Origin: an uncultured virus (IMG/VR IMGVR_UViG_3300021364_000014)
Taxonomy: Duplodnaviria; Heunggongvirae; Uroviricota; Caudoviricetes
DNA: 64,000 nt
Virus record (IMG/VR): IMGVR_UViG_3300021364_000014
Reading direction: 5' to 3' (one strand)
Of this stretch, positions 29,536-52,700 are shown piece by piece (position 1 is the first letter of the stretch; each line of letters begins with the position of its first letter). Made by a program: the position numbers and the translations under genes. Below the pieces are notes generated by a model. The model saw only the letters and a list, made by a program, of their open reading frames with translations. It made no database searches and had not been told where the DNA came from.

Positions 29536-29686
29536 GACTATGGAATGGTTCCCAATGTTCCCATCCGTATTTATGAACTGCCCACATTCCTAAGATGGGA
29601 ACGAATACAAGTAAGAACCCCATGACACCTAGGCACCACGGGCGTTCCATTACTGCTCTTGCTATATGTCCTAGTTGATGCATCAT
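29507..29686 (-). CDS. Hypothetical membrane protein
   Basis: LVFVPILGMWAVHKYGWEHWEPF; ATGA overlap with the zwf stop. Confidence 0.6.
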   Translation of the reverse strand: MMHQLGHIARAVMERPWCLGVMGFLLVFVPILGMWAVHKYGWEHWEPFHSHEPPTPPTE

Positions 29687-31023: not shown

Positions 31024-31126
31024 AGTCGTCCGAGTCGTAGTATTGAGTTTCACCTTTATAGGCTCCAAACCACAGGGTGGCACATACAAAGGGTATTGAT
31101 ATCCAGAGAAGCGCATTACCTAACAT
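30998..31126 (-). CDS. ndhP: NdhP-like small subunit of the cyanobacterial NDH-1 complex (not in ORF track)
   Basis: MLGNALLWISIPFVCATLWFGAYKGETQYYDSDDYDGNGTAH: TM helix plus the NdhP-type tail FG...YD.D.Y.GNG(S/T)AH. Confidence 0.8.
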   Translation of the reverse strand: MLGNALLWISIPFVCATLWFGAYKGETQYYDSDDYDGNGTAH

Positions 31127-32174
31127 GATGACCACCAAACATAAATCTCATTCCATTCAAAATCTTGGACGCGAAAGCGCCAAGACGGCGTGAGTTAAAA
31201 CGCTCATACAGCGCAGTGCTGAGGACAGGAGCGGGTACACCAAGATCCACAGCAGCGTGAACAGTCCAACGACCCTCACCACTGTCTGATACTCCCCCAT
31301 CGAACTTGCTAAGCTCTCGATCGCTCCGTAGAACATCAGCGGTAAGATCAAGTAACCAACTGCCAACCACGCTACCGCGACGCCACAGCTCAGCCACCTC
31401 AGCAACGTTAATGTCATACTGATAATCGGCAGGGTTGTCCATTGGGGCGACCTCTGCATCTCCTGCTTTGACATACTTAGAACCTGCGTTTGCTTCATGG
31501 AGGATGTTAAATCCTTCTGCGTATGCCTGCATGATACCATATTCCACACCATTGTGGACCATCTTCACAAAGTGTCCAGCTCCAGGACCGCCACAATGCA
31601 ACCAACCTTTCTCTGCTTGGGTCACCCATGAGTTAGGTTCAGTCCTGGGGGCAGCATCAATTCCTGGGGAGAGGGCATCAAAAATGCCTTCACAAGTGGC
31701 GACCGCAGTATCTCCGCCACCAACCATAAGACAGTATCCACGGTCCAGACCGTAAACACCACCACTAGTGCCACAGTCAATATACGCGATGCCAAGTTTT
31801 GCAAGGCGCTCTGCTCTTTTCCGACTGTCCTTAAAATTGCTATTGCCATGATCAATAATAATGTCGCCTTCACGACAATATCGTAATAGCTCATTGATCG
31901 TCTCCTCTACTGTTTCTGCTGGAACTACCATCATGAAAATGCCAGGCAGATAAACAGTTTCTCCCGACTTTTCTCCATAAATTGATTTTCCTTCATGTAC
32001 TACTTGAACAAGGCTTTCCACAGAAGTGGTACATCCACTGATATAACCCTTCTCATATTGTTCATTAGCTTTTTCATAGTTGTTTCTATAACCCCATACT
32101 TCGTGTCCGTTTGCGATAAGACGGCGGGACATTCCTTCGCCCATCCGCCCAAGTCCTATCATTCCTACTTTCAT
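31116..32174 (-). CDS. gnd: 6-phosphogluconate dehydrogenase (short form)
   Basis: GLGRMG, DHGNS, GTSGG, GHFVKMVHNGVEYG, DSGEGRW. Confidence 0.97.
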   Translation of the reverse strand: MKVGMIGLGRMGEGMSRRLIANGHEVWGYRNNYEKANEQYEKGYISGCTTSVESLVQVVHEGKSIYGEKSGETVYLPGIFMMVVPAETVEETINELLRYCREGDIIIDHGNSNFKDSRKRAERLAKLGIAYIDCGTSGGVYGLDRGYCLMVGGGDTAVATCEGIFDALSPGIDAAPRTEPNSWVTQAEKGWLHCGGPGAGHFVKMVHNGVEYGIMQAYAEGFNILHEANAGSKYVKAGDAEVAPMDNPADYQYDINVAEVAELWRRGSVVGSWLLDLTADVLRSDRELSKFDGGVSDSGEGRWTVHAAVDLGVPAPVLSTALYERFNSRRLGAFASKILNGMRFMFGGHHVR

Positions 32175-32674
32175 TTGATCATCTCCATTGCTTTTAGTAA
32201 TTCATTACTATGTTGTAGTTCGTCATTTAAGATCTCAAGGATCTTGTCGTCATGTCCATTGAGTGCTAAGTGTTTGGCATATGTAGTTGCTGCGTGAACT
32301 TCTACTTCGTAGGACAGATGGTAAGCAGAGCGAGGAGCCACCCAATAATAAACCACGTTGGTCCAATAATAGATAAGGACGAGGTGCTTGGCGACAAAGC
32401 GATCGATAAAATAAGTATTACCGCCCCTGCTCTCCATATATTCCAGATGTTCTGTTTCATTGACTGACTGTGCAAAATGCTCTTTCATCAAATACAGATG
32501 TTCGGGACCACGCAATCCCATGCTTTCCCTGAAATGTAATACACTCAAAAAAGCAAAATAGGGTGCCCGAGCAATTTCCTCAAGCACCCAAAAACGTGAA
32601 TAGTCTCTTCCTTGATAAAGGAAGTCTAGTATTGCAACAGTGATGTCTAAAACAACAGTGTTGAATTTTTTCAT
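32171..32674 (-). CDS. ptox: Plastoquinol terminal oxidase
   Basis: RFWVLEEIARAPYF, NETEH, EVEVHA, NDELQH di-iron ligands. Confidence 0.95.
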   Translation of the reverse strand: MKKFNTVVLDITVAILDFLYQGRDYSRFWVLEEIARAPYFAFLSVLHFRESMGLRGPEHLYLMKEHFAQSVNETEHLEYMESRGGNTYFIDRFVAKHLVLIYYWTNVVYYWVAPRSAYHLSYEVEVHAATTYAKHLALNGHDDKILEILNDELQHSNELLKAMEMIK

Positions 32675-37488: not shown

Positions 37489-38031
37489 TCAGGGAATGAA
37501 ATTAAAGTTGATGACAAATCGAGAGTTGTGCGTAGGTTTACTACTTGAATGAAAGCGCAAACCATCAAAGAACACACAACGTCCTTTCTTTGGTGTGACA
37601 GTGCTATTTATGGGATATTCGGCAATCGGATCTCCGTACATCCTTTCACTAAAATACGTATCACCGTCACTATCATTGACATAATACAGACATACCATAT
37701 GTGGATCTGCCATATCTACATGCATAGAATCATATTCTTTATGTCTAATGCCAGGTGTCTGCAAAAAACATCTACCACGGATGACTTTCGAAACACTGAT
37801 ACCTGTATTATAACACGCTTCAAATAAAAGCGGCATGAACAATCCAGTGTATGATGTAGTAGATTTACCATCTAACAAAAACATATGAGAGAATCCTGGT
37901 AGTTGACTCTCTCCATCTTCGGATAGATTGTCATGGTAGACCCACCTAAAATCTGTATCAAATCTCATAGTTTCTTCGATGAGATTTTGGTAGTTAGGAT
38001 TGATGCAATTGTCTTTAATAATGTTCTTCAT
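37489..38031 (-). CDS. 2OG-Fe(II) oxygenase
   Basis: MHVD...YYVNDSDGDT...FHSS...RFVINFN. Confidence 0.85.
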   Translation of the reverse strand: MKNIIKDNCINPNYQNLIEETMRFDTDFRWVYHDNLSEDGESQLPGFSHMFLLDGKSTTSYTGLFMPLLFEACYNTGISVSKVIRGRCFLQTPGIRHKEYDSMHVDMADPHMVCLYYVNDSDGDTYFSERMYGDPIAEYPINSTVTPKKGRCVFFDGLRFHSSSKPTHNSRFVINFNFIP

Positions 38032-38620
38032 CTGGTCCCTCCACATTCCAAGTAAGATTTCCAGATACAGTCACTCGCTCATCAGTAGTAGATTTGAATG
38101 GATAGACTGCATGTTTTGTGGTGGACGGGAACATAAGTATAACACCATTCCAAGATTTATCAACTGGTAATACTTCTGCTTCTAACTGAAACGCACCATT
38201 ACTACTATGAGTGGTTCTCTCTTCTGCTCCGTATGGTATATCGACAAAGATAACAAAACTTACAATACCAGAGTGTGTATGGACTGGATTGTATTCATTC
38301 TGTCTTTGGTAATTTACCCAAAGGTTTCTTAGTTTGATAAAAGGTGATACGTCTCTTGTCTCTTGAAAATCCCATGGACAAGTTTTATATACTTCATTCC
38401 ATAGATCTCTGGACAAATCAACAACATAGTCTTCAAATCCAGGACATTCATACTTCCACTCAGACAAACTTGATTGTTGTTCTAGAGCACCAGCCAATCT
38501 TGTGTTGTAGTTCCATGTCTCATCTCCTCTACGATTTCTTGTATAAGCAAGAAGATCTCTGTATAAGTTGTCTGGTATCTTCTCAGATATAAATGAAAGA
38601 TTACTTTGTTGATAAATCAT
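38015..38620 (-). CDS. 2OG-Fe(II) oxygenase (HxH type)
   Basis: YNPVHTHSG...FPSTTKHAVYP...RVTVSGN. Confidence 0.85.
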   Translation of the reverse strand: MIYQQSNLSFISEKIPDNLYRDLLAYTRNRRGDETWNYNTRLAGALEQQSSLSEWKYECPGFEDYVVDLSRDLWNEVYKTCPWDFQETRDVSPFIKLRNLWVNYQRQNEYNPVHTHSGIVSFVIFVDIPYGAEERTTHSSNGAFQLEAEVLPVDKSWNGVILMFPSTTKHAVYPFKSTTDERVTVSGNLTWNVEGPDEEHY

Positions 38621-39132
38621 GGATACAAATCAGCACTTATACTATATCGTTTTTGATCTTCCACTCCTTTGCCAGGTGTATGTGGTAGATTTGATGGAAA
38701 TATAAACCACGTCATTAAATTACTTGGTAAGTAATACGGGTCTCTTCTTGGCATGGGGAACATAGTAGTTCCAGACTCACCTAACTTCACATACATTATA
38801 CCAGACAACGTAAATGGATTCTCTGGGTTATGGCAGTGCATGTATGGCTCTATCGGATTTTTATCCCAATCAACATACACCCACGAATTCATATTGTAAT
38901 CAAATATATCCATACCCCAAAACCTAGAACAAGCATCGTAGAATGACCATCTAAGTTTTTTGATCATAGGGTTATCTTGCTCTAAGAAATCATCCTTACC
39001 CTCATTGAAAGTAAGTTTAGATACGTGAGCCATGTTCTTAGAAAGACTGCCCTCTGCAATAGAAGTATCGATGAATTCTATGAGTTCGTCAGCATCAATA
39101 TCGACAGGATATTGTTTGATTCCTAATACCAT
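38617..39132 (-). CDS. 2OG-Fe(II) oxygenase (HxH type)
   Basis: MHCH...SGIMY...FPSNLPHTP...RYSISAD. Confidence 0.8.
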   Translation of the reverse strand: MVLGIKQYPVDIDADELIEFIDTSIAEGSLSKNMAHVSKLTFNEGKDDFLEQDNPMIKKLRWSFYDACSRFWGMDIFDYNMNSWVYVDWDKNPIEPYMHCHNPENPFTLSGIMYVKLGESGTTMFPMPRRDPYYLPSNLMTWFIFPSNLPHTPGKGVEDQKRYSISADLYP

Positions 39133-39704
39133 TTTCTTTTTGTTTGTGCAATAATTTTATCATGGATATCAGGATCACAAAATGAGAATGCTATGGTAGT
39201 CCTGAGTTCATTACCAATCAAACTATTAGGAGGTTGACCTTTGTGTAACCAGTTAGATGGAATGAATACACCACTGTTAGGAACATATGGAGTAAAATGA
39301 TATTCTTCATCGGGAGTCTGACATACAAACTCTCCTCCCCATTCTACATCCCAGTATGGTTGGTTGAAATAGATGAACGTCCATACTCCATGTTCTTCCC
39401 AATCTTTATGGAAGAGAGTATTCTGACCTGCAGTCTGACCATTAGCATGGATCTTGCATAGTTTGATATCTCTACGCAAGTGCTTCATCATTTTCAATCT
39501 AACTGTAGTAGCACACTTAGTAAAGATCAAATCTGTCCTAAGAGGATGTTGCCACGATACAGGATCTCCCTGACCATAAGACGCATTGTTGTACGTCCAC
39601 GTGGCAAGACTATTCATAGAAGGTGATTTGCGATCAAAATAGTCCCACAAAGTAAGTCGCTCTGATTTTGATAGAACGTTATTAATAACAATCGGTTTAT
39701 TCAT
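39123..39704 (-). CDS. 2OG-Fe(II) oxygenase
   Basis: FHKD...WGGEF...LHKG...RTTIAF. Confidence 0.85.
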   Translation of the reverse strand: MNKPIVINNVLSKSERLTLWDYFDRKSPSMNSLATWTYNNASYGQGDPVSWQHPLRTDLIFTKCATTVRLKMMKHLRRDIKLCKIHANGQTAGQNTLFHKDWEEHGVWTFIYFNQPYWDVEWGGEFVCQTPDEEYHFTPYVPNSGVFIPSNWLHKGQPPNSLIGNELRTTIAFSFCDPDIHDKIIAQTKRKWY

Positions 39705-40264
39705 ACCCACCAAATCCAACCAGTCATAATATATTTTTCTTGAGTCTCTGATATCTGTCCTCTATGCTTATGAGTTAATGCGGCGGGGAAGATTACAGTT
39801 TTACCTTTTTCTGCCTTGACTGTGTAGTCTTGATAGAAAAATTCTGTTCCACCATCTGGAACATCATTTAGATATGTGATATACACGAATGCTCTATCAC
39901 ATCCATCTTTACCAGAACCATCAACATGCCAAGTGTAGAATCCATCTCCAGGTTTGTAATACTGAATCTGTGGCAAACGTTCCATTACAAATTCTTGATT
40001 CATAATCTGAAGAGAGTTTAGATAGTCGTCAACAAAACTATCCAACTCCGCTCTATACTTATCAAATTTGTAATCCATTGCGGATCCTAAAGGACCTGCA
40101 TCTTCAATAAAAAAGTCTTTGCTTTTTTTAATTTCTGGAATGACACTACCACCACCTACACGTCCAGCGTATGTCAAATCTTTTTTGTCTGCATCATGAA
40201 AAAGATCTATGAGTCTATCACAGATAGAAAGGTCTGATAATGCGTACTCTCTAATAAATTTCAT
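39701..40264 (-). CDS. 2OG-Fe(II) oxygenase (prolyl-4-hydroxylase-like)
   Basis: WHVD...YLNDVPDGGTEF...THKHRG...KYIMTGW. Confidence 0.88.
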   Translation of the reverse strand: MKFIREYALSDLSICDRLIDLFHDADKKDLTYAGRVGGGSVIPEIKKSKDFFIEDAGPLGSAMDYKFDKYRAELDSFVDDYLNSLQIMNQEFVMERLPQIQYYKPGDGFYTWHVDGSGKDGCDRAFVYITYLNDVPDGGTEFFYQDYTVKAEKGKTVIFPAALTHKHRGQISETQEKYIMTGWIWWV

Positions 40265-40845
40265 TGCCAAGCGGGTCCTTGTACCCATCCTACCAGAGAT
40301 GTTCTAGTACCACTAGTAACAGGAAGAACAGTATGCGGTGTATCTGCTCCAAAGAAAATAGCTTCTCTTTCTTTCAACTCCATAGTTCTTCTATCTCCTG
40401 CTGCATCGATTGAAAATTCACCACCTTCAAACTCACCTGGCAAAACAATACTGAAACTCATTTTTCTAATTCTGTTACCCTCTCTTCTATTTGGAGTCCA
40501 ATCTCCCTCATCAATATGCCAATCATAATAATCTGTGGGACCATAAACGGTATATTGAAGAGGTTCGATAAAGTCTAATTTTATATTCCAAAGCATTTTT
40601 GAGTTAGCAAACTCTACCAATCCATCCAATAACTCAAACACTCTTGGATTGTCAATAAAAGATACTTTACATTGCCTATCCTTTGTTATTTGACCACCAC
40701 CAACTTTTGCAACCATCAGATTTTCCTCTGCAATAGCCAATCCTTCTTTCTGCATATGTCCAGATTCATTGATTGCCTGCATTAGCATATTAAAAAAATC
40801 TTCTTCTAATTTGATTTTGAAGTATTGATATTTAAAAGAGTTCAT
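40261..40845 (-). CDS. 2OG-Fe(II) oxygenase (PKHD-type-like)
   Basis: YDWHID...RKMSFS...FEGGEF...PHTVLPVTSGTRTSLVGW. Confidence 0.88.
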   Translation of the reverse strand: MNSFKYQYFKIKLEEDFFNMLMQAINESGHMQKEGLAIAEENLMVAKVGGGQITKDRQCKVSFIDNPRVFELLDGLVEFANSKMLWNIKLDFIEPLQYTVYGPTDYYDWHIDEGDWTPNRREGNRIRKMSFSIVLPGEFEGGEFSIDAAGDRRTMELKEREAIFFGADTPHTVLPVTSGTRTSLVGWVQGPAWQ

Positions 40846-42524
40846 TTTGAAATTACCATAACATGTATACCATTCCACCATCCATTAGGATCTTCTGGAA
40901 TCTTGGTTAGAATCTTTCTTTCAAACAAAAGATTTAAGTTGTTCTCTTTTACAAAGAACTCTGCTGCTTGCACAACACCCATAAAGTTTGCATCGTCAAT
41001 AACAAGGATAAACTTGTCTGCAAATGCTGGAATCAGGAATGTGAGGTTATCATATTGAGCTTGTGGATCGTGATCAGCATCATAGAAAATAACATTAGGT
41101 TTTTTATGTACATGTCTGGGAGTCAGATCCTGAATAGTATTCGGACAGAAGTATTGTTTCTCTCTCAATCCACGGAAGAAAACTTTTTTTGGATCATCAT
41201 ATGATTCCATTTCAACGTCATCTCTAAATGGAGAGATCTCTTTCTCTGAATAATCATCAACAGCAAACGCTTCTACATCTCTGTTCATGGTAGCAGCAAA
41301 GAATGTACTACCAGCATGTACACCCAACTCCATGTAGATAGCGTCAGGTTTGGATAGTAGATTATTCAAGAAGTGTCTTACAGTATTAGAAGATAATCCT
41401 TCGTAATTAAATCCCTCTTCTACAAACTCACTATCACCTCTTGCTGCTTTTTCGATAGATGACAGAACCAATTCGATGTCCTCGTCAAAGTGTCTATCGC
41501 TTCTCTTCATTCTAGATTGCACAACAGAGTCGCAGTAGTTGCACTTCCAACAATCAAAACCACATGTCTTGATCTTCTCTCTCCAAATATCGATTGGTTT
41601 TTCTTCGAGAGTTACATCTTCAATGTAGTCATTGAACTGTGGGTGTAGCAACTCCTCATCTGCTGCCCATCGCTTGATGATGTCCATGCTTTCCATAAGA
41701 CGCATTGCATTCTCTCTGCCATGCATCTTGAATACATCAATACCTAGATCAAGAAACTCTTCCCAATCTTTTTTCCATGGTGGAATGGTTGCTGCTTTCA
41801 GTGATGCAGCAGGATCTCTCTCGTCCCAGGTAGAACAAGATACCCTACTCAAACTAGTATTGAAATACTGAGGATCATCTTTCTCTCTCACCATATTGTA
41901 GTGATAGTGTTCTGGCATGATAGGACAACCACCCCAGCACCACTCGTTAGCAAGTAGTGAGATCTTTACTGGTTTGCCAATTTCAGCACAGTATTCTTTT
42001 GCTTCTTTAATTCTCAGTAGAGTATCTCTATCACGCATGAGATCTCTATCTAAGTTGACATAATGAAACCCTGCTTTTGCTAGGTTTACAATTTCATTAG
42101 GTCTAGTAACTTCTCTAAGAATAGTGTTTTTGATGAACAGTTCGGGAAACTCCTTCTGCAACTGTCCAGTCAATACCCATGATGTATGTGGGATAGTAAT
42201 GATACGAACTCCTGCATCATACAGGAATCTAAAATTCTCGATGAAAATATCCAGGTTCTCTTGTGTTGGTGGAACTTGAATATTATTAAATGTAGCAGAC
42301 AGGGGAATACCTGTTTCCTGAGAAACAAACAAGGCATTGAGAGTGGTATCTCTCATATCCCCATCAATAACATCACCCATCGCATCCTGCACAAACGGCG
42401 GCATACGACAGGTGAAGTAAATATCGTAGATGTATTCCTTATGTTCCTTGAGAAAAGGAATAAAGGTGTTTAGTACAAAGTCTTCAGGAAGCTTTGTATT
42501 CAGCGGGATCGAGAATCTTGCCAT
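40842..42524 (-). CDS. U32-family (Fe-S hydroxylase-like) domain fused to a class I SAM methyltransferase
   Basis: N-terminal LDRDLMRD, NEWCWGGC, C, FKMHGRE and CGFDCWKCNYC; C-terminal MELGVHAGST, FYDADH, VIDD. Confidence 0.75.
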   Translation of the reverse strand: MARFSIPLNTKLPEDFVLNTFIPFLKEHKEYIYDIYFTCRMPPFVQDAMGDVIDGDMRDTTLNALFVSQETGIPLSATFNNIQVPPTQENLDIFIENFRFLYDAGVRIITIPHTSWVLTGQLQKEFPELFIKNTILREVTRPNEIVNLAKAGFHYVNLDRDLMRDRDTLLRIKEAKEYCAEIGKPVKISLLANEWCWGGCPIMPEHYHYNMVREKDDPQYFNTSLSRVSCSTWDERDPAASLKAATIPPWKKDWEEFLDLGIDVFKMHGRENAMRLMESMDIIKRWAADEELLHPQFNDYIEDVTLEEKPIDIWREKIKTCGFDCWKCNYCDSVVQSRMKRSDRHFDEDIELVLSSIEKAARGDSEFVEEGFNYEGLSSNTVRHFLNNLLSKPDAIYMELGVHAGSTFFAATMNRDVEAFAVDDYSEKEISPFRDDVEMESYDDPKKVFFRGLREKQYFCPNTIQDLTPRHVHKKPNVIFYDADHDPQAQYDNLTFLIPAFADKFILVIDDANFMGVVQAAEFFVKENNLNLLFERKILTKIPEDPNGWWNGIHVMVISK

Positions 42525-42714
42525 ACTCTACAATCACTTTCTCCATATAAATGTGTTCAGCTTCTGGATTGGTTTCCAGAATATACTTGTTCTCTTCCGC
42601 AAGCGCCATTAGCTTCTTACGATCAAGATCTTTGTTCTTATCTTCCAACTCAAATCTGTCATAGATTGAGTAATGGATGATGGGAAGTAATTCAAGGTGT
42701 CTTTGACTCGCCAT
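42484..42714 (-). CDS. Hypothetical protein
   Basis: 76 aa from MASQRH; overlaps both neighbours. Confidence 0.6.
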   Translation of the reverse strand: MASQRHLELLPIIHYSIYDRFELEDKNKDLDRKKLMALAEENKYILETNPEAEHIYMEKVIVEYGKILDPAEYKAS

Positions 42715-43546
42715 CGTTAGATTGCTCGATTTGTAGTTGTCCTGAGTATTTATGTTGCTGAAGCTTAGGTAATGCAATACCCTCTTGCTGCAACTGTGCC
42801 TGAACTTGTGGAGCGATCATCTTATTAAGTTTATCAATTCCACCACCAATCATACCAGAGTATTTGACTGCGATACCAAGTGCTTCTACTTGATCTTCTT
42901 CTGGCATGTCCATGATTGATGTCATATTACCAGCACCAATCCTACCATATGAAACGATGTCCATTGCTGCCTGCTTACCCATACGGGCAATCCAATAAGT
43001 CTTGACTTCGTGTGGTTGCTCTGTTGTAAAATACTCTAGAGGATAACCATTTTCTTCGTCAACATATTTGTCAACAACATTCAAGAAATACTTGAGCTCC
43101 AGTTCAGACTGTCTAAGTTTTCTTTTCCAGATACCAATATCATAATCGTTCTTTTCTAGATCGATCTGCATTAGTTCTCTATCGAGTTCGTCAGGAACTT
43201 GTTCCATGTCCCTAACTAATCTCTTTCTTAGAATTTCTGCTTTTCTAAGACTGTTTCTATTCTCCATGTAGGCATGATACCTAGTCTCAAGTTCCATCAA
43301 TGCTTGACGAACTTTTCTCCATGGAGTGAGTTGAGTATCAGCAACAAAGTGCTCACACTCATATTCTGTCATGCCACTATTGAATCTCATACTGGCAGAC
43401 AATACATCAAAGTCTTTCGATGTTAGACCGAACTCGTCTACAAAAGATTTTGATAAATGAATTTCGCCCGTGTCCGAGCTAACAATGTTTCTTACGTCTG
43501 AAACGATATCAGATAAACTTGCGTCAGAATTTAAAGACATATGCAT
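42692..43546 (-). CDS. Hypothetical coiled-coil protein
   Basis: TPWRKVRQALMELETR..., YWIARMGKQAAMD, GRIGAGN. Confidence 0.7.
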   Translation of the reverse strand: MHMSLNSDASLSDIVSDVRNIVSSDTGEIHLSKSFVDEFGLTSKDFDVLSASMRFNSGMTEYECEHFVADTQLTPWRKVRQALMELETRYHAYMENRNSLRKAEILRKRLVRDMEQVPDELDRELMQIDLEKNDYDIGIWKRKLRQSELELKYFLNVVDKYVDEENGYPLEYFTTEQPHEVKTYWIARMGKQAAMDIVSYGRIGAGNMTSIMDMPEEDQVEALGIAVKYSGMIGGGIDKLNKMIAPQVQAQLQQEGIALPKLQQHKYSGQLQIEQSNDGESKTP

Positions 43547-44333
43547 CAACCTCATACTCTGGTTTGCGATCCCAATCAGTTTCAGAGATCGTTCTGCCCA
43601 TTTCAATCGCTTGTTTTTGGGGCAAGAGGATTCCCATGTAATCCTCATATAAGATATTTAGGTCCCAAACAGTAGTGCAACTTTCAAACTTTTTGACTAG
43701 TGTTTGATACTCTACAAGCATTGTAGAAAGTTTATCTTCCCACTCTTCCGCTTTTTGTAGAATCTTATTTGCTAGAGCATCCTTATCGATATGTCTCTCC
43801 ATAGAGAGATAATCTAGGAAAGGAGTTCTGTGTCCATCTGCTCCTCTGTAAGTCAACCACTCCCTTGCTTCATGCTTCTGGATTTCCCAGGATGCAGACT
43901 CAAGATCTGTAGTATTTTTTAGATTTCTGAATCTAGTATTATATTCATCCTCAATGATTTCTTTTGCAAAAGCAACCATGAAATCAATAACATCTTTAAG
44001 AATGTTATCTGTCAACTCAATGGGAACCTTCATAATTTCGTTTGCAGGCGTCCATGCAAAACCTGCTTCACCTGTATTTACAGCGACCTTACCAAATGGT
44101 CGGATCTCAGAGAAGAAGTTAGATCCGTTATAAGCTTGCTGCTTAGTAACTTCTCTATACTTGTGCTCCCACTCTTTGTAAATAATTTGGAAGATATTTT
44201 CGCTGACCTCTACACAAGAGAAGTGCATCAGCGAAAACATTTCGTTGTAGTGCAAGCGAAGATCCCCAGTTGCCGATGCGTTGACAAACTGTTCTTGCTT
44301 GATTTCCTTTTCGTTGATGATTAGATATCTCAT
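43524..44333 (-). CDS. Hypothetical protein with a tail-fibre-chaperone-like C-terminal domain
   Basis: SWEIQKHEAREW...TPFLDYL...DALANKILQKA; TAATG overlap with the upstream gene. Confidence 0.6.
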   Translation of the reverse strand: MRYLIINEKEIKQEQFVNASATGDLRLHYNEMFSLMHFSCVEVSENIFQIIYKEWEHKYREVTKQQAYNGSNFFSEIRPFGKVAVNTGEAGFAWTPANEIMKVPIELTDNILKDVIDFMVAFAKEIIEDEYNTRFRNLKNTTDLESASWEIQKHEAREWLTYRGADGHRTPFLDYLSMERHIDKDALANKILQKAEEWEDKLSTMLVEYQTLVKKFESCTTVWDLNILYEDYMGILLPQKQAIEMGRTISETDWDRKPEYEVDAYVFKF

Positions 44334-45616
44334 TATTGTGCCTGATTTGCAGTGACAGCAGCGGCAGCAGAACAGCAACCGCCAGAAGATTGACCATAGT
44401 GACCCTTGGGTCTTGCAGCAGCACCAAGGTTGGTCTCAACATCAGTAGTGTAATCCCACTTAGTTGTGTGATTGTTCTGCTGACCATCATATTGACCCAT
44501 CATGTAACCATGGTCTTGACCCATCATGAAGTTCTCTTCACCATAAGCACGGACCTTAGTACCGTTCTTAAGACCAGCTCCAGAGGAACCGCTGTACTTC
44601 GTCCATGGGGAAGTAACATTGTTTCCAGTACCAGCATAGAAATGTCCGTACTTAGAAGGAAGGAACTTACAAACTCCGTCAGGAGCAGCGTTAGAAGACC
44701 ATCCAGCCCAACTATCGTTGGAATGATTGACATAATGTCTGCTACCACGGAAAGATGCCCAAGATCTATTTTCATCACCACAAGATGCGGTGTGGTCAGA
44801 ACCAGAAGGCGAGTTGCCTACCTGATACATGATCTCAGAGGGATAGTGTAGTTTACCAACAGCAGCGTTACCACCACCTAGGTTGTAACCAAATTGCTGT
44901 ACTTGTGCAGTAGCACATGCGTTTCTGTCTCTGTTGACAGGCATGTTCCAACCACCAACAACGGTGTATCCCATGACGCCTCTGGGGTCATCACCTTCAT
45001 AACCGTAGTTCGATGGAGAGTAAGTACCACCACCAGGGTTGCTTCCTGTAGTACCAAACATTCTCCTCATACCTGTGTGCAGGTTAATTGAGTCTGTATG
45101 ACTGGAAGATCCCGTAAACGAGTTGACGCAACCATGACCATATCCGAAGTAATCACTCCAAGTACAGTCAGCATAGGTCAATGCTCTAGTCAACTGCTCA
45201 CCGCAATAGAACGTGATGTCATTTGCGTGCCAAGTCTTGTTGACTGTTCTCCAAGGGTTGGATCCCTTGTACCCCGCCACCAGATAACCGTGGGTTATCA
45301 AACTTCTGTATCTAAATCCCGTAAGGGGAGCAGATGCAACGGTTTGTCCAGGATATGCCCAGAACACACCGTTCTCACCATCGGATACTAGATAAGATCC
45401 TCTGGTAATATTTGAAGGTTCAGGAATACCACCACCAACTTCATCCCACTCAGATCCATTCCAGATCTGTGCTTTATTCTCGTCAGTATTGTAAATAATC
45501 TGACCGACATTTGGAGTAGCTGGTCTATTGCTGTTAGTAAAGGATGGTAGTTTAAGACCCTGTGTGGTCAAACTAGCATTACCTGTAACAACTGTTCCAA
45601 CAGTTAATTGAGACAT
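44333..45616 (-). CDS. Probable fibre-tip protein: docking segment plus Kelch-like propeller
   Basis: RP...GQIIYNTD....IWNGSEW motif, then repeated (H/F)GY..G blades. Confidence 0.65.
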   Translation of the reverse strand: MSQLTVGTVVTGNASLTTQGLKLPSFTNSNRPATPNVGQIIYNTDENKAQIWNGSEWDEVGGGIPEPSNITRGSYLVSDGENGVFWAYPGQTVASAPLTGFRYRSLITHGYLVAGYKGSNPWRTVNKTWHANDITFYCGEQLTRALTYADCTWSDYFGYGHGCVNSFTGSSSHTDSINLHTGMRRMFGTTGSNPGGGTYSPSNYGYEGDDPRGVMGYTVVGGWNMPVNRDRNACATAQVQQFGYNLGGGNAAVGKLHYPSEIMYQVGNSPSGSDHTASCGDENRSWASFRGSRHYVNHSNDSWAGWSSNAAPDGVCKFLPSKYGHFYAGTGNNVTSPWTKYSGSSGAGLKNGTKVRAYGEENFMMGQDHGYMMGQYDGQQNNHTTKWDYTTDVETNLGAAARPKGHYGQSSGGCCSAAAAVTANQAQ

Positions 45617-45647: not shown

Positions 45648-46004
45648 CTATTCTGGTTTGGGATGATTCTCTTTGACAGATTTCACAGCAGCATACCAAG
45701 AGGAAGTATCTTTTCCTGGCACAAGACCAGATTCCATATCATGGAATAACATATCTAATTGATCTGATAGTTCTGGGTACTCCATTCTTCTACCGAGATC
45801 ATATGGAACCTCTTTTGGTTGCACTCTCTCAATACTTCTATCCTGAAAATTATAGAAGTAGTCTGCTTCTGTAGTTTTTGGTTCTAGTTTATATGGACCT
45901 TCGACCCAAAAGAAACCTTCATGAACTTCAAATCTTACATCAGTGCCGCCTCTCTTCATTTCGATGATGCGACCTGTTTCTTTATTTACTAGTGATTGAT
46001 ACAT
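45648..46004 (-). CDS. Tail fibre assembly chaperone-like protein
   Basis: From MYQSLV; RRMEYPELSDQLDMLFH...WYAAVKSVKENHPKP. The ORF-track extension overlaps the next gene. Confidence 0.65.
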   Translation of the reverse strand: MYQSLVNKETGRIIEMKRGGTDVRFEVHEGFFWVEGPYKLEPKTTEADYFYNFQDRSIERVQPKEVPYDLGRRMEYPELSDQLDMLFHDMESGLVPGKDTSSWYAAVKSVKENHPKPE

Positions 46005-46005
46005 A

Positions 46006-46761
46006 TCAAGTATACTCCCATACGATAACGCAACCAGCACCGCCGTTGCTATTGTTATGTGCAAAACCATTCTGTGAATAGTATCCATATGCACCGCCAG
46101 AACCCCACATTCCGTGGGTGTTTGCTGCACCATCACTGGAGTTGTGGTGGTTTGATCCAGCTTTATGCCAGAATGTAGATCCACCCGATCCTTCTCTATT
46201 TGATCCGTGTGACATTTCACCAGGACCACCAGGAAGGTTGATGTCGCCACCAGAAGCATCGCCACCTCTACCACCTTCATATGGGTTATCGGTATATCCA
46301 CCAGACCCACCACCTGCTGTGCAGTAAGAACCAAAGGTGGATGTTCCACCTCCGCCTCCTCTTCCACCATTTCTTACATATCCACCGCCACCACCATATG
46401 AGTAGGTCACACTGTTGACGTTGGAAACATCGATATATTTAATAGCGGTAGCACCACCGCCGCCACCAGCACCACGATAGTTATCATCGTTGCAACGTGC
46501 TCCACCACCACCACCAGTGACATACACTAGAACGTGGTTACAACCTGCAGGTTTTGTCCAAGTTCCAGATCCTCCAGCAGTGGATGTAACACCCCAAGAT
46601 CCAGTTTGAGATGTGTACACTTTGATGCCAATCAAAGCACCAGGAGTGGACATTTCGGAATAACCACTGCCATTCCAAATTTTCAATTTATCATCTTGCA
46701 GATCCATAATATTAACACCAGCGGTGTTTTGGATCTGGTCAACCTTTAGAATACCAGCCAT
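46006..46761 (-). CDS. Glycine-rich fibre-tip protein
   Basis: MAGILKVDQIQ start; GTWTKPAG, VTGGGGG, GGAGCVIVWEY. Confidence 0.75.
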   Translation of the reverse strand: MAGILKVDQIQNTAGVNIMDLQDDKLKIWNGSGYSEMSTPGALIGIKVYTSQTGSWGVTSTAGGSGTWTKPAGCNHVLVYVTGGGGGARCNDDNYRGAGGGGGATAIKYIDVSNVNSVTYSYGGGGGYVRNGGRGGGGGTSTFGSYCTAGGGSGGYTDNPYEGGRGGDASGGDINLPGGPGEMSHGSNREGSGGSTFWHKAGSNHHNSSDGAANTHGMWGSGGAYGYYSQNGFAHNNSNGGAGCVIVWEYT

Positions 46762-46766
46762 AATCT

Positions 46767-49700
46767 TTATACAATAGCCCAGTTACCACCACTATTTATA
46801 GTTACAGTGTAACCGTTTGCAATAGTGATAGGTCCTGCACTTACACAGTTGATGTTTGCGGGGATTGTGATATTTTCTGCAACAGTGTTGCTGTTAGACT
46901 TGAAGATACCGTAAGAGTCAATCCACTGTCTGACACCGTTAGCATACAGAGCACCATTCTCGATGTTAGTATCGCCAGAAATATGTAGTTCATATGTAGG
47001 ATCAACTCTGTTGATACCAACTCTTGATAGTCTGTAGATATCTGCTTGGTTAGTTGCTTCAGTCCATCTGGAAGTAACGAATTCAGAGTTGTTCTGGAAC
47101 AACTGACCATTGATGTTCATGTCTCCCTGAACATTCAACTTATAGTTTCTGGTCTGGTTGTTCTCTGGATCAACACCAGAGAATGCAGAAGTGTTGACTG
47201 CAATTGCGTTCTCAGAACCATCAATCAAGAGAGCAGGTGTTCCCTTCCAGGAAGTACCGCCATTGTTGCTGGATGGTGTGATTTCAAAGCAATCGTTGAA
47301 TCCGATTTGGTTACCAACTCTGAAGTTTCTTGCAGAAGAAGAACCAAGGAAGTATAATGGAGCACCAGAGTTATCATTAGCAGTATCAATAGTCATACTG
47401 ATAATGTTGGTGAGATTTCTAGCTTGGTCTAGAATTCTCGTTCCGTTTACATGATAACCAAATGCTGCGTTTACACCAGTGTCATCATAAACTTGGAAAT
47501 GAACTTTATCTCCATCTTCTGGTTCGTAGATGTCAAGACCTTCAGGTGTTGCCCTGATTGCCATGTCAATTCCAGAATCAGCAGATCCATTGAAGAAAAT
47601 AGTTGGTTGTGTAACACCAGAAAGTAGAATGTTTCCACCAACATGTAATGCTTGTGCTGGATTGACTCCAACATTGATACCAACACGATCTGTAGATACA
47701 TCAACGAATAGTGTATCAGTATCAACTGCAAGGTCATTTGTGATCGAAACGGTGCTCAGGAATGTACCTGTACCTTGTACTTGGAAGTTAGATGCAGCAC
47801 CAGTTAGGGTCAGCGAACCAGTCATGGTATCGCCTGCCTTGAGGACGTTCAGAGAAGCAGCACCAGTGATAGATGCTGTGATTGTACCAGCAGCAAAGTT
47901 GCCACTCGCATCACGCTTGACTGCTGTATTTGCAATGTTTGCAGATTGGAATTCGATGTTACCTTCGTTCCAAACTTTGCTACCGTTGACAGAGAAACCA
48001 TCAGCATTAACAACCTGTACGTTGAGAGTACCAGATCCGTCAGATGCATTACCACCAGAAGCGATAATTGCTGAGTTGTAGTTTGCTGCCTGAGTAGAAG
48101 AGTTGAAGTATAGACCAGGAGAAGATTGAACTCCGTCCTTTCTACCTAGTCTTAGGTTTGCTGTGCCACCATCACTTTCCCACTTAGCAACTTCTACTGT
48201 GTTGTCATCTTCAATAGTGAACTCTTGGAATGGTACGTTGATAGCAGTGCTACCAATATTAATTGCACCAATGAAGTTACCAGTCGTTAGTCTACCAACA
48301 ATGATGGTGTAGTCATTGAAGTTGTCAGCGGTGTCATCGTTGACGATGATGTTGTCAATTGCGATCTGACCCGTACCCTGACCATTTGCGTTGTACAGGT
48401 TGACGTTGTTACCAGGAGTGAATGGAGAAGTAGTTAGAGTTCTGCCACTTACATAGATTTGATACTTAGGATCACCATTGAAAGACTTGATGGTAATAGT
48501 ATCTCTGAATACTGTTGGACTAATAAATCTTGGAAGTCTGTTATCAGAGAGTGTTCCACCATTAATGTTTAGAGCATTCTGATACCATGATCCTTGCTTA
48601 TCATCTAGTCTGTCTGCGTTTAGACCAGATCCAACACCATCATTTAGAGAAGACCAAATCTTTGCCCAGGAACCGAAGCTGGTAACACCAGTTCCAGATC
48701 CACGCAACCACATGTTGTCATTGTCGGTAAATGCAAGTTGTCTTACACCACCACCAGATGCGTCGAAGTTGCTGCCGAACTGTCTGATAGTCATGACGAG
48801 GTGCTTGTTACCACCGTCTAACAACTGGTTAGAAGAGTTGTTTACAGTGTTAGCAACAATACCTTCTTGGAAGAAGTTTGGAGTTGGGTTGGATGTTGGG
48901 TTGTTAGTACCAGTTAGAACTCTGAGTGTGTTACCAGAAGAACCAGAGATGTCAATGTTGTAAGTACCAGACAGTCTATCTGTTGGTAGCGTACCAGCGT
49001 TCTGGTTGCTAGAGTTCAGGTAGAAGGAACCTTGTGCGCCGTCGAGAAGGTCAGCGTCAAGACCAGAGTCAGGACCGACGTTTAGATCGACAGAACCATT
49101 TCCAGATTGACCGATGGTGAACTGAGACTTCTTAAATCTTGCAACACCAATCGTTCCATACAAGTCAGAGGAGATCGTCAGATCAGTAACTCTCTGAACG
49201 TCAATAGAAACGTTTGCATACTGTCTGTTGACTGTGCTTAGTTTTGCCTCTAGAACCAGACCAGATCCTCCACCAATTTCTGGTGGTGGATTTGTGATTG
49301 AGAAGTCAGCATTGTATCCAGTACCACCGTCAGTAACAGTGATCTCAGTGACTGCATTGTTTGCAACAATAACGTTGCAACGTAGTCCAGTGCCAGTTCC
49401 ACCAGTCAATCCAACGTCAAAGTATTGACCATTGGTGAATCCACTACCACCAGAGGAAATGATAACGTCATCGATGAATCCACCTTGAGTGTAGCTGGAC
49501 TCGAAGATCATTGGAGATCCACCACGCTCAAACTCGATGATGGTTCCTGCAGGAATTGTAGCAGTGACTGGGTTGTTGATCGAAACTGTCGTCAGACCAG
49601 CAGCAGTAATAACACCTGTAATATTGGTATTGAGTTGGATACCAGAAACATTGTTTAGAACTTCATGTCCAATCAATACATCCGAGTTGGTTGTAAAGAT

Positions 49701-52700
49701 CAGAGAACTAGATCCAGCATTTACGTTAGAGTAGAGTTGAGCAAAGTATCTTGTTTCAGAACCCTTGACCGACTGAACTGCAAGTGCAAAGTTCTGGTCA
49801 CCACGCAGGAATGTGAAGGAGTTTGCAGCACCACCAGTTGCCAATCTGTCAGTCTCTAGAACACCAGATGTGATGTCAGAAGCAGCGATCTGGTTGGAGG
49901 ATAGAGATACCCAGTTATTAGCGTTGCTGGAAGAAGTATTGACGACTCTGCTAATGTTGACAGCAACTGGAGGAATATCACTAGAATCAATATTGTCAGT
50001 ATCGGTGATCTTGACGTTATTAACAATGTTACCGTACAGTCTGCTTTCGATGAATGCATCACCTTGTGCTTGTGTACCTGCACCAGTTGGAGCAGCAAAC
50101 GTAACAGTTGGTTGAGTTGTATATCCTTTACCGCCCTTGATACCTTGGAACTCGATGATTGTAACGGTAACAACCTCGCCGTTAGCAATGGTACATTCTG
50201 CTTGTGCAGGAATTGCACCTAATCCAGGGTTACCACCAGAGATTGTAACCGTTGGTGGGGAAGTGTATCCAGAACCACCATCAGTGATATTGATCTGGTA
50301 GACTACACCAGTTCTGTATTCAGTTGCCTGAATTCTACCACCAGAGATACTACCAGTGAAGATATCATTGATAGTAAACTGCAGTGTGGGATCTACAGGG
50401 AATCCAGCGAACAGACTGGAGTTATCATTGTTCAGAATGAACGATGTAGATGTATCCTGTTGAATTGCGATGTCACCAGCAAGTGCGCCTTCGATAGAAA
50501 GTCTTGCATTTTGATCGGGAACAGTGTAGACACTGAATGGTCTGAGTGCTGGGATCTGGTCGATAGAAATCTTACCAGAGTCAGTCAATTCAACCAGTGC
50601 TCTAGGAACAGCGTTCGTGGAGTATGGTTTGTTGATGTATGGACCAAGATTGTTGGTGATGTAGTCTCTAACTGCCTTCTGAGTAGGTAGTTTAGAGTCA
50701 GTTGCGTTAGCACCACCAAGTGTGTTGGATGCGTCGAAACCAGTAACAACAACGTCGCCACCTTTCAGTTTCAAGAATTCAACTTCAGAGATCGTAACCG
50801 TACCTGTGAAAGTAATAGCACCAGTTCTGTTTTCGATTCTTGCGAATGTACCAACCTTGAAGTCACCAAGTTCGTCAGTACCAGAAACATAAACACGACC
50901 ATAGTTTTCAGAGACTTGTTCGAATGCCTCAACCTTAGTACCACCGTTCTCGGGTAGTGCTAGGTAGTTAATACCAGAACCTGCAAATTCCCAAGTGTGG
51001 GAAGAAGAGTTGACAATAGATGGTCTGTGTAGGTTGATTGTAGAACCAGTTAGTGTTCCTACAGAAACTGGGTTTCCAGTAGCAATACTGGTTAGATCCA
51101 TTGCCTGACCAGTTCCATCATCGATGGTCAACTGTGCAGAGAAAGGAGGACCAACAGTTACCGAACCAACAGCATCGATAAAGTATTCAATTTCAGGATT
51201 GGTGTTTGTAACACCATCAATCTTGACGACATAGTGCTCAAGAGGTTCTCTTCCAAGTCCACTAACTGTTAGAATAGTTCTACCAGTTGGAGTTGCGGAT
51301 ACATTGGTGATTGTTGCAATATCAAAGACGTATGGATCTTTTCTGAATCCTGTACCTCTTAGTGCATATTGTCCAAAGTTGGTAGCGGAGTTGGTGATAG
51401 ATGCATAACCACCAGACTCACAGAGGACACCATCAGAACAGAAGATAACAAAGACCGAAACCAACTGGGTATAACCATCGTTGATAACTTTATATCCTGT
51501 ACCACCAAAGGAGACGATCGTGAATGCCGCAGCAACCATCGATTTACCTTGGTTGGGGAAGGATGCAGAACCGTCTAGTTCCAGACCAGGGAAAGGACAG
51601 TTGGGTTGCTTGACCTTAGAACCGTCAATTAAAGCACCGCCACCACCTAGGAAGGAGATAACAGATGCGTTCTGGGTGTAAGGAGATGCTTCAATAATTG
51701 GGAAGTCATCAAAGTCACCACGAACCGCCATTCTGACGCCATCCTGATCATAGATGTAGCTGTCAGGATAGGTTAGAATTTGTGAAGTATCATACAGAGT
51801 TCCTGTGTTCTTAGTTGTAACACCAGGAGCAACTGTACCGTCTAGAATATCTTCTAGTAGAGCGAATAATGTTGTAATTGTGGATGCTACGTTTGCACAA
51901 TCTGGGTTTCCAGGATCAGCAAGAATAGTTCCGTCAGTGAATTGTGGGATTGGCGAAGATGTAGTTACAGGAGTGCCAGCACCATCAGTCCAGTTACGCA
52001 TTGCAGCAATAGCGTAATCTCTTACTTGCTGATATGCATATAGAGTTTGTGGTAAATATGCAGAATCAATACCTGTTAGTTGTGCTCCAGTGTAGTAGAA
52101 CTCTGCATTAGTTACAGTTCCTGAATTACCACCTAAGCACAAGTCTCTTACAAGACCTTTGAGGATGAATCCAATATCTCTTCTGCACTTTCTTTCGTCT
52201 ACATTATTAAGTCCTAGTGCTGGATACTGAACAAGAGTATCAAGATATGCTTGATCAGCAATAAGATCCTTGTTGCGAGCAATCAGATATGCTGCATCTA
52301 GATATGTTCCAGAAGCATTATTTGCAATAACGTCTACCCAGAGGTATGCTAAAGTATCAATAGCAGATGCTACGTTAGCACAAGCAGGTGTTCCTGCTGT
52401 TGTTGTGATAACAGTATCATCAAAGTATCTTGGTAGAGTGGAATATACAGGTGTGTAGACAGGATCGCTTGGAGTTCTATTACCAGTTCTCCAGTTACAC
52501 ATTGCAAAGGTTGCTAGTTCTCTAGCATACTCAATTGCACGAACTGTTTGAATAATCTCATTCTCTACATATGCAATCTTGGCACCAACAATATACTTCT
52601 TAGCGGCTTCGATTACGTTAAAGTTGGATCCAAATTCTAGGTCTCTAGCTAGAGCATTCAAGAAGTGAACAACGTCTTCACGACACTGATCATCATCAAC

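What the first reader, a model, noticed from the sequence alone, without database searches (positions are those of the whole stretch)
40842..42524. Fused U32-family Fe-S enzyme and SAM methyltransferase, a possible hydroxylate-then-methylate enzyme
Seen: the N-terminal ~340 aa has LDRDLMRD, NEWCWGGCP..H..C, FKMHGRE (compare U32 KIEGR) and an extra CGFDCWKCNYC cluster. The C-terminal ~200 aa has ELGVHAGST...FYDADH...VIDD. Known: characterised U32 'peptidases' (TrhP, RlhA, UbiU/UbiV) are Fe-S, O2-independent hydroxylases, and in Bacillus the U32 genes sit beside the O-methyltransferase TrmR to make 5-methoxyuridine in tRNA. Inference: the phage fusion may perform both steps on an unknown substrate. 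It is odd to find it beside six O2-dependent hydroxylases in a phage of an oxygenic host.
Basis: partly seen in the sequence, partly recalled or inferred. Interest (0 to 1): 0.75.

Follow-up and report, generated by a model that had tools for sequence, protein, structure and literature searches.

The report
Phage iron-sulfur enzyme fused to methyltransferase
A late gene of marine cyanobacterial viruses joins a distant relative of the oxygen-independent 'U32' iron-sulfur hydroxylases to an O-methyltransferase and travels with a propeller-shaped, tail-linked protein, so it probably adds a methoxy group to a still unknown target during virus assembly.

Summary
Observation confirmed: one intact 560-aa ORF (40842-42524, minus strand) in a T4-like cyanophage, with all quoted motifs. 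Pfam misses the N-domain, but its predicted fold matches U32 Mk0906 best (Z 16.0), and profile comparison links it (P 99.6%) to a bacterial U32 subfamily that Pfam recognises. It lacks the CX6CX15CX3/4C motif of TrhP/RlhA/UbiU. It has CX3CX5H...C plus a CX3CX2CX2C cap, and falls outside that clade. The C-domain has a metal-dependent O-methyltransferase fold.

The gene is part of a conserved cassette (propeller, coiled-coil partner, chaperone-like protein) beside tail-fibre genes. The P-HM2 orthologue is transcribed late. The methyltransferase is fused in 26 of 29 type I clusters, separate in 2, absent in RP12 and never fused in type II.

Hydroxylate-then-methylate is plausible but untested; tRNA is an unlikely target. 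Best guess (0.4): tailoring of the propeller protein or a group attached to it. A small-molecule pathway is the main rival (0.25): the bridging bacterial U32 examined lies in a ketosynthase/UbiD/Methyltransf_24 cluster, and RP31 virions did not show the cassette. The scan noted this family before on other DNA.

The parts
40842..42524 (-). U32-like / O-methyltransferase fusion gene, 560 aa (phrog_1458; T4-GC354 in P-SSM4, P-HM2, S-ShM2)
41490..42524 (-). N-domain, aa 1-345: U32-like TIM barrel plus helical 4-Cys cap
   Evidence: Mk0906 5d88 Z 16.0, rmsd 3.3, 223 aligned; HHalign P 99.6% to a Pfam-recognised bacterial U32 subfamily
41835..41939 (-). Putative cluster-1 ligands C196-x3-C200-x5-H206-x23-C230; C196 and C200 align with RlhA C169 and C176
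   Evidence: conservation; alignment; metal binding inferred
41532..41564 (-). Putative cluster-2 (or zinc) cap C321-x3-C325-x2-C328-x2-C331
   Evidence: 72 of 72; 59 of 59; which metal is untested
40845..41435 (-). C-domain, aa 364-560: class I SAM-dependent, metal-type O-methyltransferase (ExGxxxG, D423, D482, D510-D511, N513, WWNG)
   Evidence: TomG Z 16.1, TrmR Z 16.0, MycF Z 15.8, tied; conservation; separate gene in L259 and L302
42484..42714 (-). Small ORF (about 76 aa from the ATG at 42714) between late promoter and fusion; function unknown
   Evidence: no family hit
42747..42753 (-). T4-type late-promoter-like ATAAATA, 33 nt before the small ORF
   Evidence: all 14 window matches are on the coding strand, but the total is not above chance
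42692..43540 (-). F0, helical-hairpin partner protein (phrog_1409, T4-GC353)
   Evidence: 27 of 27 type I clusters; model; only generic coiled-coil matches, Z up to 10.7
43524..44378 (-). F3, chaperone-like protein (phrog_1604, T4-GC352); likely start near 44333
   Evidence: 25 of 27; likeness to tail-fibre assembly chaperones is recalled, not tested
44333..45616 (-). F1, protein with a fibre-type N-terminal module and a kelch-like propeller (phrog_1417, T4-GC351, annotated 'sericin 1 precursor-like')
   Evidence: kelch only by weak HMM hits, E 0.44-0.73; not folded here
45648..46761 (-). Gly-rich protein (46006-46761; Gly_rich_2, phrog_863) and small phrog_1787 protein; a Gly-rich protein with a small partner also precedes type II U32 genes
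46793..46799 (-). Late-promoter-like ATAAATA in the end of the 3305-aa fibre gene, 32 nt before the Gly-rich gene
37489..40881 (-). Six tandem 2OG-Fe(II) oxygenase-like genes; the number and kind of oxygenases vary between phages

Best explanation
A late-expressed tailoring enzyme of a conserved tail-linked cassette. SHOWN: a U32-like barrel with two conserved metal-ligand sets, an O-methyltransferase fold, tight linkage to the propeller F1 and helical F0, and late transcription of the P-HM2 orthologue. INFERRED: the barrel holds a [4Fe-4S] cluster through C196, C200, C230 and possibly H206, and the cap holds a second cluster as an electron relay. As proposed for UbiU/V, the enzyme oxidises an aromatic ring and installs OH without O2, probably from prephenate. 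The Mg-type methyltransferase then caps that OH as OCH3. GUESSED: the target is a residue of, or a group attached to, the propeller protein during tail-tip assembly, with F0 and F3 as adaptor and chaperone. Halogenases, 2OG oxygenases, radical SAM enzymes and the methyltransferase itself would be exchangeable add-ons.
For: Fold and homology. Ligand conservation. Linkage: 123 of 50,697 phage records hold the full fusion, and 123 each hold F0 and F1 with the same 77/38/8 split by name. F0 lies within 6 kb in 27 of 27 and F1 in 26 of 27 type I clusters; the 27th, RP12, has ORF142 at E 8.7e-11 in a targeted search. The cassette lies after tail-fibre genes in P-SSM4, S-CAM4, P-HM2 and RP12. Timing: PHM2_098-101 are all Late in light and dark (PMC5082946 supplement). 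Type II U32 follows Gly-rich proteins and a small partner in 9 of 20 clusters. Two of 7 bacterial members sit near peptide-modifying radical SAM enzymes (L372 PqqD-SPASM; L371 TIGR03975). An IscU-like gene lies within three ORFs of U32 in L139 and L150.
Against: No activity has been measured. None of RP31 ORF135-139 (the cassette) is among 32 virion proteins, though the flanking ORF133, ORF140 and fibre ORF150 are (PMC5468394 Table S3; gel bands, low depth). The methyltransferase is absent in RP12 and near only 1 of 21 type II genes, so it is not obligatory. 11 of 20 type II clusters and all 7 bacterial clusters lack these tail-type partners. In S-ShM2 the fusion lies about 6 kb from F0. A DUF401 membrane protein lies near 16 of 29 type I genes, which fits a small molecule or ion better. 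The characterised U32 substrates in the papers read are RNA bases and a prenylated phenol, none a protein. The propeller fold rests on weak hits.
Confidence: 0.4

Rival explanations
1. Same hydroxylate-then-methylate chemistry, but on a diffusible small aromatic molecule or lipid. The cassette would be a late biosynthetic cluster, with the propeller as enzyme or binding subunit and DUF401 as transporter.
For: The one bridging bacterial U32 locus examined lies in a cluster of two ketosynthases, UbiD, Methyltransf_24, a second methyltransferase, FMN reductase, radical SAM/SPASM and RND efflux (L400). Trp-halogenase-like genes occur in 14 of 61 loci and DUF401 in 17 of 61. The propeller has conserved polar residues (K322, E360, N362, Q367, Q380, N382, S410, S411 at 91-96%). 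The cassette was not seen in RP31 virions. The top methyltransferase folds include small-molecule O-methyltransferases.
Against: Only one bacterial cluster was read. F1 carries an N-terminal module shared with other phage proteins of the fibre region. The cassette sits among tail genes in unrelated phage groups. No scaffold-building enzyme is conserved in the phage cassette.
Confidence: 0.25
2. The barrel is not a hydroxylase. It is a two-cluster reductase or electron carrier, or a peptidase that matures fibres, and the methyltransferase works separately, for example on a sugar hydroxyl.
For: The ligand pattern differs from UbiU, TrhP and RlhA. In RB69 the U32-fold gp50 sits in the 5-hydroxycytosine cluster, yet a thymidylate synthase homologue makes the 5-hydroxy-dCMP and gp50 is only labelled a putative 'sugar or heterocycle reductase' (PMC13326640). 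MycF and SpnH sugar O-methyltransferases are within about 1 Z of the top. Some U32 proteins were reported as collagenases (PMC5727448).
Against: K266, G269 and R270 (KIEGR equivalent), R160 and two aligned cysteines are kept. Fusion or adjacency with the methyltransferase in 28 of 29 type I clusters suggests sequential action.
Confidence: 0.17
3. RNA modification: a fused TrhP+TrmR-like enzyme making 5-methoxyuridine in tRNA, or an RlhA-like rRNA hydroxylase.
For: TrmR is tied for the best C-domain fold (Z 16.0). Two of the three characterised U32 activities act on RNA.
Against: The family lies outside the TrhP/RlhA clade (quick tree, SH-aLRT 99). The canonical motif is in 0 of 59. Both domains are acidic (K+R 42 vs D+E 55; 21 vs 38), though E. 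coli TrhP and RlhA are mildly acidic too. Late timing, strict linkage to F0 and F1, and no tRNA gene in the window.
Confidence: 0.1
4. DNA modification: the enzyme makes a hydroxy- then methoxy-pyrimidine in phage DNA or its precursors as anti-restriction protection.
For: A sister U32 subfamily (CHI14 and Thanatos; HHalign P 96.7%; 222 phage records) lies in the arabinosyl-hydroxycytosine gene cluster.
Against: There the hydroxylation is done by a ThyA homologue. This cassette has no nucleotide kinase, dCTPase or ThyA homologue among its recurring neighbours, and it is late rather than replicative.
Confidence: 0.08

Closest known systems
Peptidase U32 family (PF01136): E. coli UbiU/UbiV, TrhP, RlhA; solved fold Mk0906 (PDB 5d88)
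   Same: TIM-barrel fold (Z 16.0; next barrel MTHFR 13.3); HHalign P 96.9%, E 1.5e-10, 221 columns to a canonical profile; KxxGR, the ARE-type Arg and two aligned cysteines.
   Different: No Pfam U32 hit for the query; CX3CX5H...C instead of CX6CX15CX3/4C; extra CX3CX2CX2C cap; fused methyltransferase; separate clade; phage tail-linked context.
Uncharacterised bacterial U32 subfamily starting 'ATNWD' (L393, P0301-P0420; annotated 'U32 family peptidase' or 'PrtC family protease'; the label ATNWD is mine)
   Same: HHalign P 99.6%, E 1.1e-24, 233 columns; CX3CX5H in 119 of 120 and a 4-Cys cap in 118 of 120; one member clusters with a Methyltransf_24 gene.
   Different: Not fused; no F0 or F1 in the locus read; polyketide-like context; remote in sequence (best HMM E 4e-31 in a small set); itself without a known function in the papers searched.
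RB69 gp50-type U32-fold protein of arabinosyl-hydroxycytosine phages (CHI14, Thanatos)
   Same: Phage-encoded, NExC motif, KxSGR, C-terminal 4-Cys cap.
   Different: Lies in the DNA-modification and replication block, has a longer C-to-C spacing and no methyltransferase; function unproven (PMC13326640 Table 1). That the CHI14 and Thanatos proteins are gp50 orthologues is inferred from context and fold.
Metal-dependent O-methyltransferases: TomG, TrmR, MycF/TylF, COMT; Pfam Methyltransf_24
   Same: Fold (Z about 16, rmsd 2.7-3.3, about 170 aligned); ExGxxxG and invariant D482, D510, D511, N513.
   Different: 10-16% identity, top hits tied, so no substrate class can be read off; conserved WWNG end. 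Assigning the Asp residues to Mg binding is recalled from COMT and MycF.
B. subtilis TrhP1/TrhP2 + TrmR (5-methoxyuridine) and UbiUV + UbiG
   Same: Logic of U32 hydroxylation followed by O-methylation (UbiUV step seen in PMC6747719 passages; the Bacillus pathway is recalled).
   Different: Separate proteins, canonical U32 clade, RNA or quinone substrate, cellular.

Membership tests
Peptidase U32 (PF01136), broad sense | Pfam HMM score above cut-off | tested here: not met
   No hit for the query; 1 weak hit (E 0.033) among 77 relatives
Peptidase U32 (PF01136), broad sense | U32 TIM-barrel fold | tested here: met
   5d88 is rank 1 of 48,161 chains, Z 16.0, rmsd 3.3, 223 aligned; model pLDDT 89.5
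Peptidase U32 (PF01136), broad sense | Profile homology to Pfam-recognised members | tested here: met
   P 99.6% to the ATNWD subfamily, which is P 99.9% to canonical U32; reversed-profile controls P 4% or less
Characterised U32 hydroxylases (UbiU/V, TrhP, RlhA) | Four-Cys motif CX6CX15CX3/4C (PMC6747719) | tested here: not met
   0 of 59; CX3CX5H and CX3CX2CX2C in 59 of 59
Characterised U32 hydroxylases (UbiU/V, TrhP, RlhA) | KIEGR-type motif and ARE-type Arg | tested here: met
   K266 71, G269 70, R270 71, R160 69 of 72; aligned
Characterised U32 hydroxylases (UbiU/V, TrhP, RlhA) | Orthology (nests in their clade) | tested here: not met
   Separate side of a branch, SH-aLRT 99; quick tree of 44 rows, careful search unfinished, midpoint root, UbiV on a long branch
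Characterised U32 hydroxylases (UbiU/V, TrhP, RlhA) | Binds [4Fe-4S]; prephenate-dependent hydroxylation | not testable with these tools
   Needs purification and assay
Methyltransf_24 (PF13578) | Pfam HMM above cut-off 26.3 bits | tested here: inconclusive
   Query 22.2 bits; relatives P0134 36.4, P0179 38.1, P0277 43.3 and the split gene in L259 35.0 pass
Class I metal-dependent O-methyltransferases | Rossmann fold, SAM motif I, acidic metal site | tested here: met
Class I metal-dependent O-methyltransferases | SAM binding and O-methyl transfer | not testable with these tools
   Needs assay
TrmR (tRNA 5-hydroxyuridine methyltransferase) | Specific similarity above other O-methyltransferases | tested here: inconclusive
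   Z 16.0 at 12% identity, tied with TomG 16.1 and MycF 15.8; no Methyltransf_3 or NCBIfam hit
Virion structural module (F1 propeller) | Present in purified virions | tested here: inconclusive
   RP31 homologue not among 32 proteins, low depth; T4-GC351 has no proteomic entry in PMC3037559, and its row appears empty for at least S-PM2 and S-SM1

The most novel reading that the evidence does not exclude
A phage-encoded, RiPP-like post-translational system: an undescribed two-cluster U32 subfamily hydroxylates aromatic residues of a tail-tip propeller without O2, and swappable methyltransferases, halogenases, oxygenases and radical SAM enzymes diversify the mark to tune host recognition or metal binding. 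It would be the first protein substrate for a U32 hydroxylase that I know of.
Probability: 0.3. Interest if true: 0.85.

Novelty: new variant of a known kind. Interest (0 to 1): 0.62.

Why it matters
The gene is common in marine cyanomyoviruses (123 GenBank records, many of them near-identical isolates; at least 2,033 protein clusters at 90% identity) and every listed record calls it hypothetical. It defines a U32 branch with a different ligand set and a second metal site, fused to the enzyme expected for the next step. That makes it a self-contained system in cultured phages (P-HM2, P-SSM4, Syn33) for the open questions of the U32 family: the electron acceptor, the role of the cluster and the range of substrates. 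If the target is a tail protein, it would also explain part of the unexplained oxygenase and halogenase load of cyanophages.

Tried and rejected
Sequence searches of PDB with the protein and two profiles found no relative. NCBIfam gave nothing for the query. Foldseek's top PDB hits to PRMT5 and pyruvate kinase were rejected: rmsd 23-25, only barrel-plus-Rossmann order. F0 gave no Atlas hit, no Foldseek hit at E 0.001 or better and only generic coiled coils. The complex prediction of N-domain with F0 returned no verdict and is not used either way. RP12 ORF141 did not match F3. No whole genome is held for the window. The count of ATAAATA (14) is not above shuffles (mean 9.95; 19 of 100 reach it); only its strand and position are used. 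Literature searches returned no listing that describes this family; the library lacks most subscription papers, including the HY126 and CHI14 studies cited in PMC13326640. Long single-member representatives (P0136, P0138, P0139, P0144, P0238) were not interpreted.
Full report
1. Observation. The window is part of a T4-like cyanomyovirus: capsid, portal, sheath, terminase, neck and replication genes can be read. The finding is one intact ORF, 40842-42524 on the minus strand, 560 aa, with every quoted motif present. It is phrog_1458 (E 3.6e-231, unknown function), and its first 344 residues also match the stand-alone phrog_36869. Pfam gives only a sub-threshold Methyltransf_24 hit at residues 399-511; NCBIfam and PDB sequence searches give nothing. 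Of 50,697 phage records 126 match: 123 cyanophage records over at least 80% of the protein and 3 Ralstonia jumbo-phage records over the N-domain; all 60 listed are annotated hypothetical. The protein search found 2,033 clusters among 7,998 scored candidates.

2. N-domain. The AlphaFold model (63 sequences, pLDDT 89.5) has U32 Mk0906 (5d88) as rank 1 of 48,161 chains: Z 16.0, rmsd 3.3, 223 aligned over residues 1-276. The next TIM barrel is MTHFR at Z 13.3. The ESM Atlas gave clusters at score 0.97, one with Peptidase_U32 in 20% of members. A profile of 72 family members aligns to a canonical U32 profile built on E. coli UbiU, UbiV, TrhP, RlhA and 12 genome hits at P 96.9%, E 1.5e-10, 221 columns when indexed on RlhA; indexed on TrhP or UbiU only 111-113 columns aligned. 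That alignment puts C196 and C200 on RlhA C169 and C176 and KMHGR on KIEGR.

A closer bridge appeared: a Pfam-recognised bacterial U32 (L393) with the same NxxCxxxCP...H pattern. Its subfamily (694 proteins, 120 listed) aligns to our profile at P 99.6%, E 1.1e-24, and to canonical U32 at P 99.9%; reversed controls score 4% or less. CX3CX5H is in 59 of 59 of our representatives and 119 of 120 of the bridge; a 4-Cys cap is in 59 of 59 and 118 of 120; the canonical CX6CX15CX3/4C motif (PMC6747719, passages) is in none. A quick tree of 44 rows separates the TrhP/RlhA/UbiU/UbiV group from bridge, RB69-type and this family (SH-aLRT 99; careful search unfinished). So the domain is a remote U32 homologue and not an orthologue of a characterised hydroxylase.

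3. C-domain. Residues 364-560 match O-methyltransferases: TomG Z 16.1, TrmR 16.0, MycF 15.8, all tied at 12-15% identity. E399, G401, G405, D423, D482, D510, D511 and N513 are invariant in 63 sequences; reading the aspartates as a Mg site rests on my recall of COMT and MycF. No substrate class follows from this.

4. Context. 378 loci (and the window) collapse to 61 clusters at 70% identity: 30 type I, 24 type II and 7 bacterial, classed by hand. Among 27 type I clusters with at least 3 kb upstream, F0 lies within 6 kb in 27, the propeller F1 in 26 and an F3-like gene in 25. The 27th, RP12, has ORF142 at E 8.7e-11 in a targeted search. These profiles were built from the same loci. In GenBank, F0 and F1 each hit 123 records with the same 77/38/8 name split as the fusion; I compared counts and listed rows, not full sets, and many records are near-identical isolates.

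The methyltransferase is fused in 26 of 29 full-length type I clusters, a separate adjacent gene in 2, and absent in RP12; in type II it is never fused and nearby in 1 of 21. Variable neighbours include Trp-halogenase-like genes (14 of 61 loci), DUF401 membrane proteins (17), 2OG oxygenases, radical SAM (3), carbamoyl-, sulfo- and glycosyltransferases. The cassette follows tail-fibre genes in P-SSM4, S-CAM4, P-HM2 and RP12; in S-ShM2 it is split by about 6 kb. Late-promoter-like ATAAATA sites lie at 46793 and 42747. In P-HM2, PHM2_098-101 (101 is the orthologue) are all classed Late (PMC5082946, supplement rows). The lead to check timing came from earlier scan notes, which had found this family on other DNA.

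5. Results against a virion target. The RP31 virion table (PMC5468394, passages and Table S3 read in full) lists 32 proteins, including fibre ORF150, ORF140 and ORF133, but none of ORF135-139. The data are gel-band and shallow, and RP31 is a distant case. The Sullivan 2010 table has no proteomic entry for the propeller cluster, and its row appears empty for at least S-PM2 and S-SM1 (PMC3037559, passages and supplement rows). The one bridge locus read is a small-molecule-type cluster with ketosynthases, UbiD and a Methyltransf_24 gene. This supports the U32 plus O-methyltransferase pairing, but on a metabolite. The sister phage subfamily sits in the arabinosyl-hydroxycytosine cluster, where a ThyA homologue does the hydroxylation and the U32-fold gp50 has only a putative label (PMC13326640, abstract and sections 25 and 27). 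A U32 fold therefore does not guarantee hydroxylase activity.

6. Mechanism. For UbiU/V the proposed route is two-electron oxidation of an aromatic ring through [4Fe-4S], then hydroxide from prephenate; the enzyme also works in air (PMC10990095, first two of four parts). By analogy I infer a barrel cluster on C196, C200, C230 and possibly H206, a second cluster on the cap as relay, and O-methylation by the fused domain. My odds for the target: propeller protein or a group attached to it 0.40; small molecule 0.25; non-hydroxylase chemistry 0.17; RNA 0.10; DNA 0.08. Summed, hydroxylate-then-methylate in some form is about 0.8 by my estimate; nothing enzymatic is shown.

7. Novelty and verdict. 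It works like a U32 hydroxylase paired with an O-methyltransferase, a known logic. It is not a member of a characterised subfamily: motif and clade tests fail. The altered ligands, the cap, the fusion and the tail-linked cassette were not found in print in searches, seen as listings unless named above; PMC5727448 was read as passages. Supplements of the U32 papers (family lists) were not read and may include the bridge subfamily. Verdict: a real, widespread, unannotated new variant of a known kind; interest 0.62.

Noticed in passing
L403:5986-7155, L404:5992-7128; L400:10558-11736: A bacterial U32 subfamily with CX3CX5H and a 4-Cys cap matches 222 phage records; the two opened (CHI14, Thanatos-2) place the gene in the arabinosyl-hydroxycytosine cluster. 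Lee et al. 2026 give the RB69 U32-fold gene no tested function; an O2-independent backup for cytosine hydroxylation is an untested idea of mine.
   Followed up: partly
L400:8954-18305: Bacterial cluster: two methyltransferases (one Methyltransf_24), UbiD, two ketosynthases, FMN reductase, U32, radical SAM/SPASM, RND efflux; looks like an undescribed aromatic polyketide or lipid pathway.
   Followed up: partly
L083-L162: A type II clade of the same U32-like family (about 390-460 aa, no fused methyltransferase) follows tandem Gly-rich genes and halogenases in some phages, and sits in the replication block beside an IscU-like gene in others (L139, L150); L139 has two tandem copies.
   Followed up: partly
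L372:8439-11077; L371:1456-10659; L377:3656-20926; L375:9908-19989: Bacterial members lie beside a PqqD-radical SAM-SPASM enzyme, a RiPP radical SAM C-methyltransferase with a canonical U32, or type I secretion genes with two-component regulators.
   Followed up: partly
L302:11637-12539 and L369:8826-9542: A prepilin-type N-methylation motif protein lies near the U32-like gene in one phage contig and one Victivallales contig.
   Followed up: no
window 29683-32674: By sequence, zwf, gnd and a PTOX-like gene sit between the neck genes and terminase: typical cyanophage auxiliary metabolic genes (names recalled, not scanned).
   Followed up: no
window 46767-56684 and 57233-62725: Very large fibre-like ORFs of 3305 and 1830 aa directly upstream of the cassette.
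   Followed up: no
window 37489-38046 and 39123-39719: These 2OG-oxygenase-like proteins hit phrog_274, labelled 'DNA endonuclease V'; the 'denV' annotation after this gene in several cyanophage records may be a mis-annotation.
   Followed up: no
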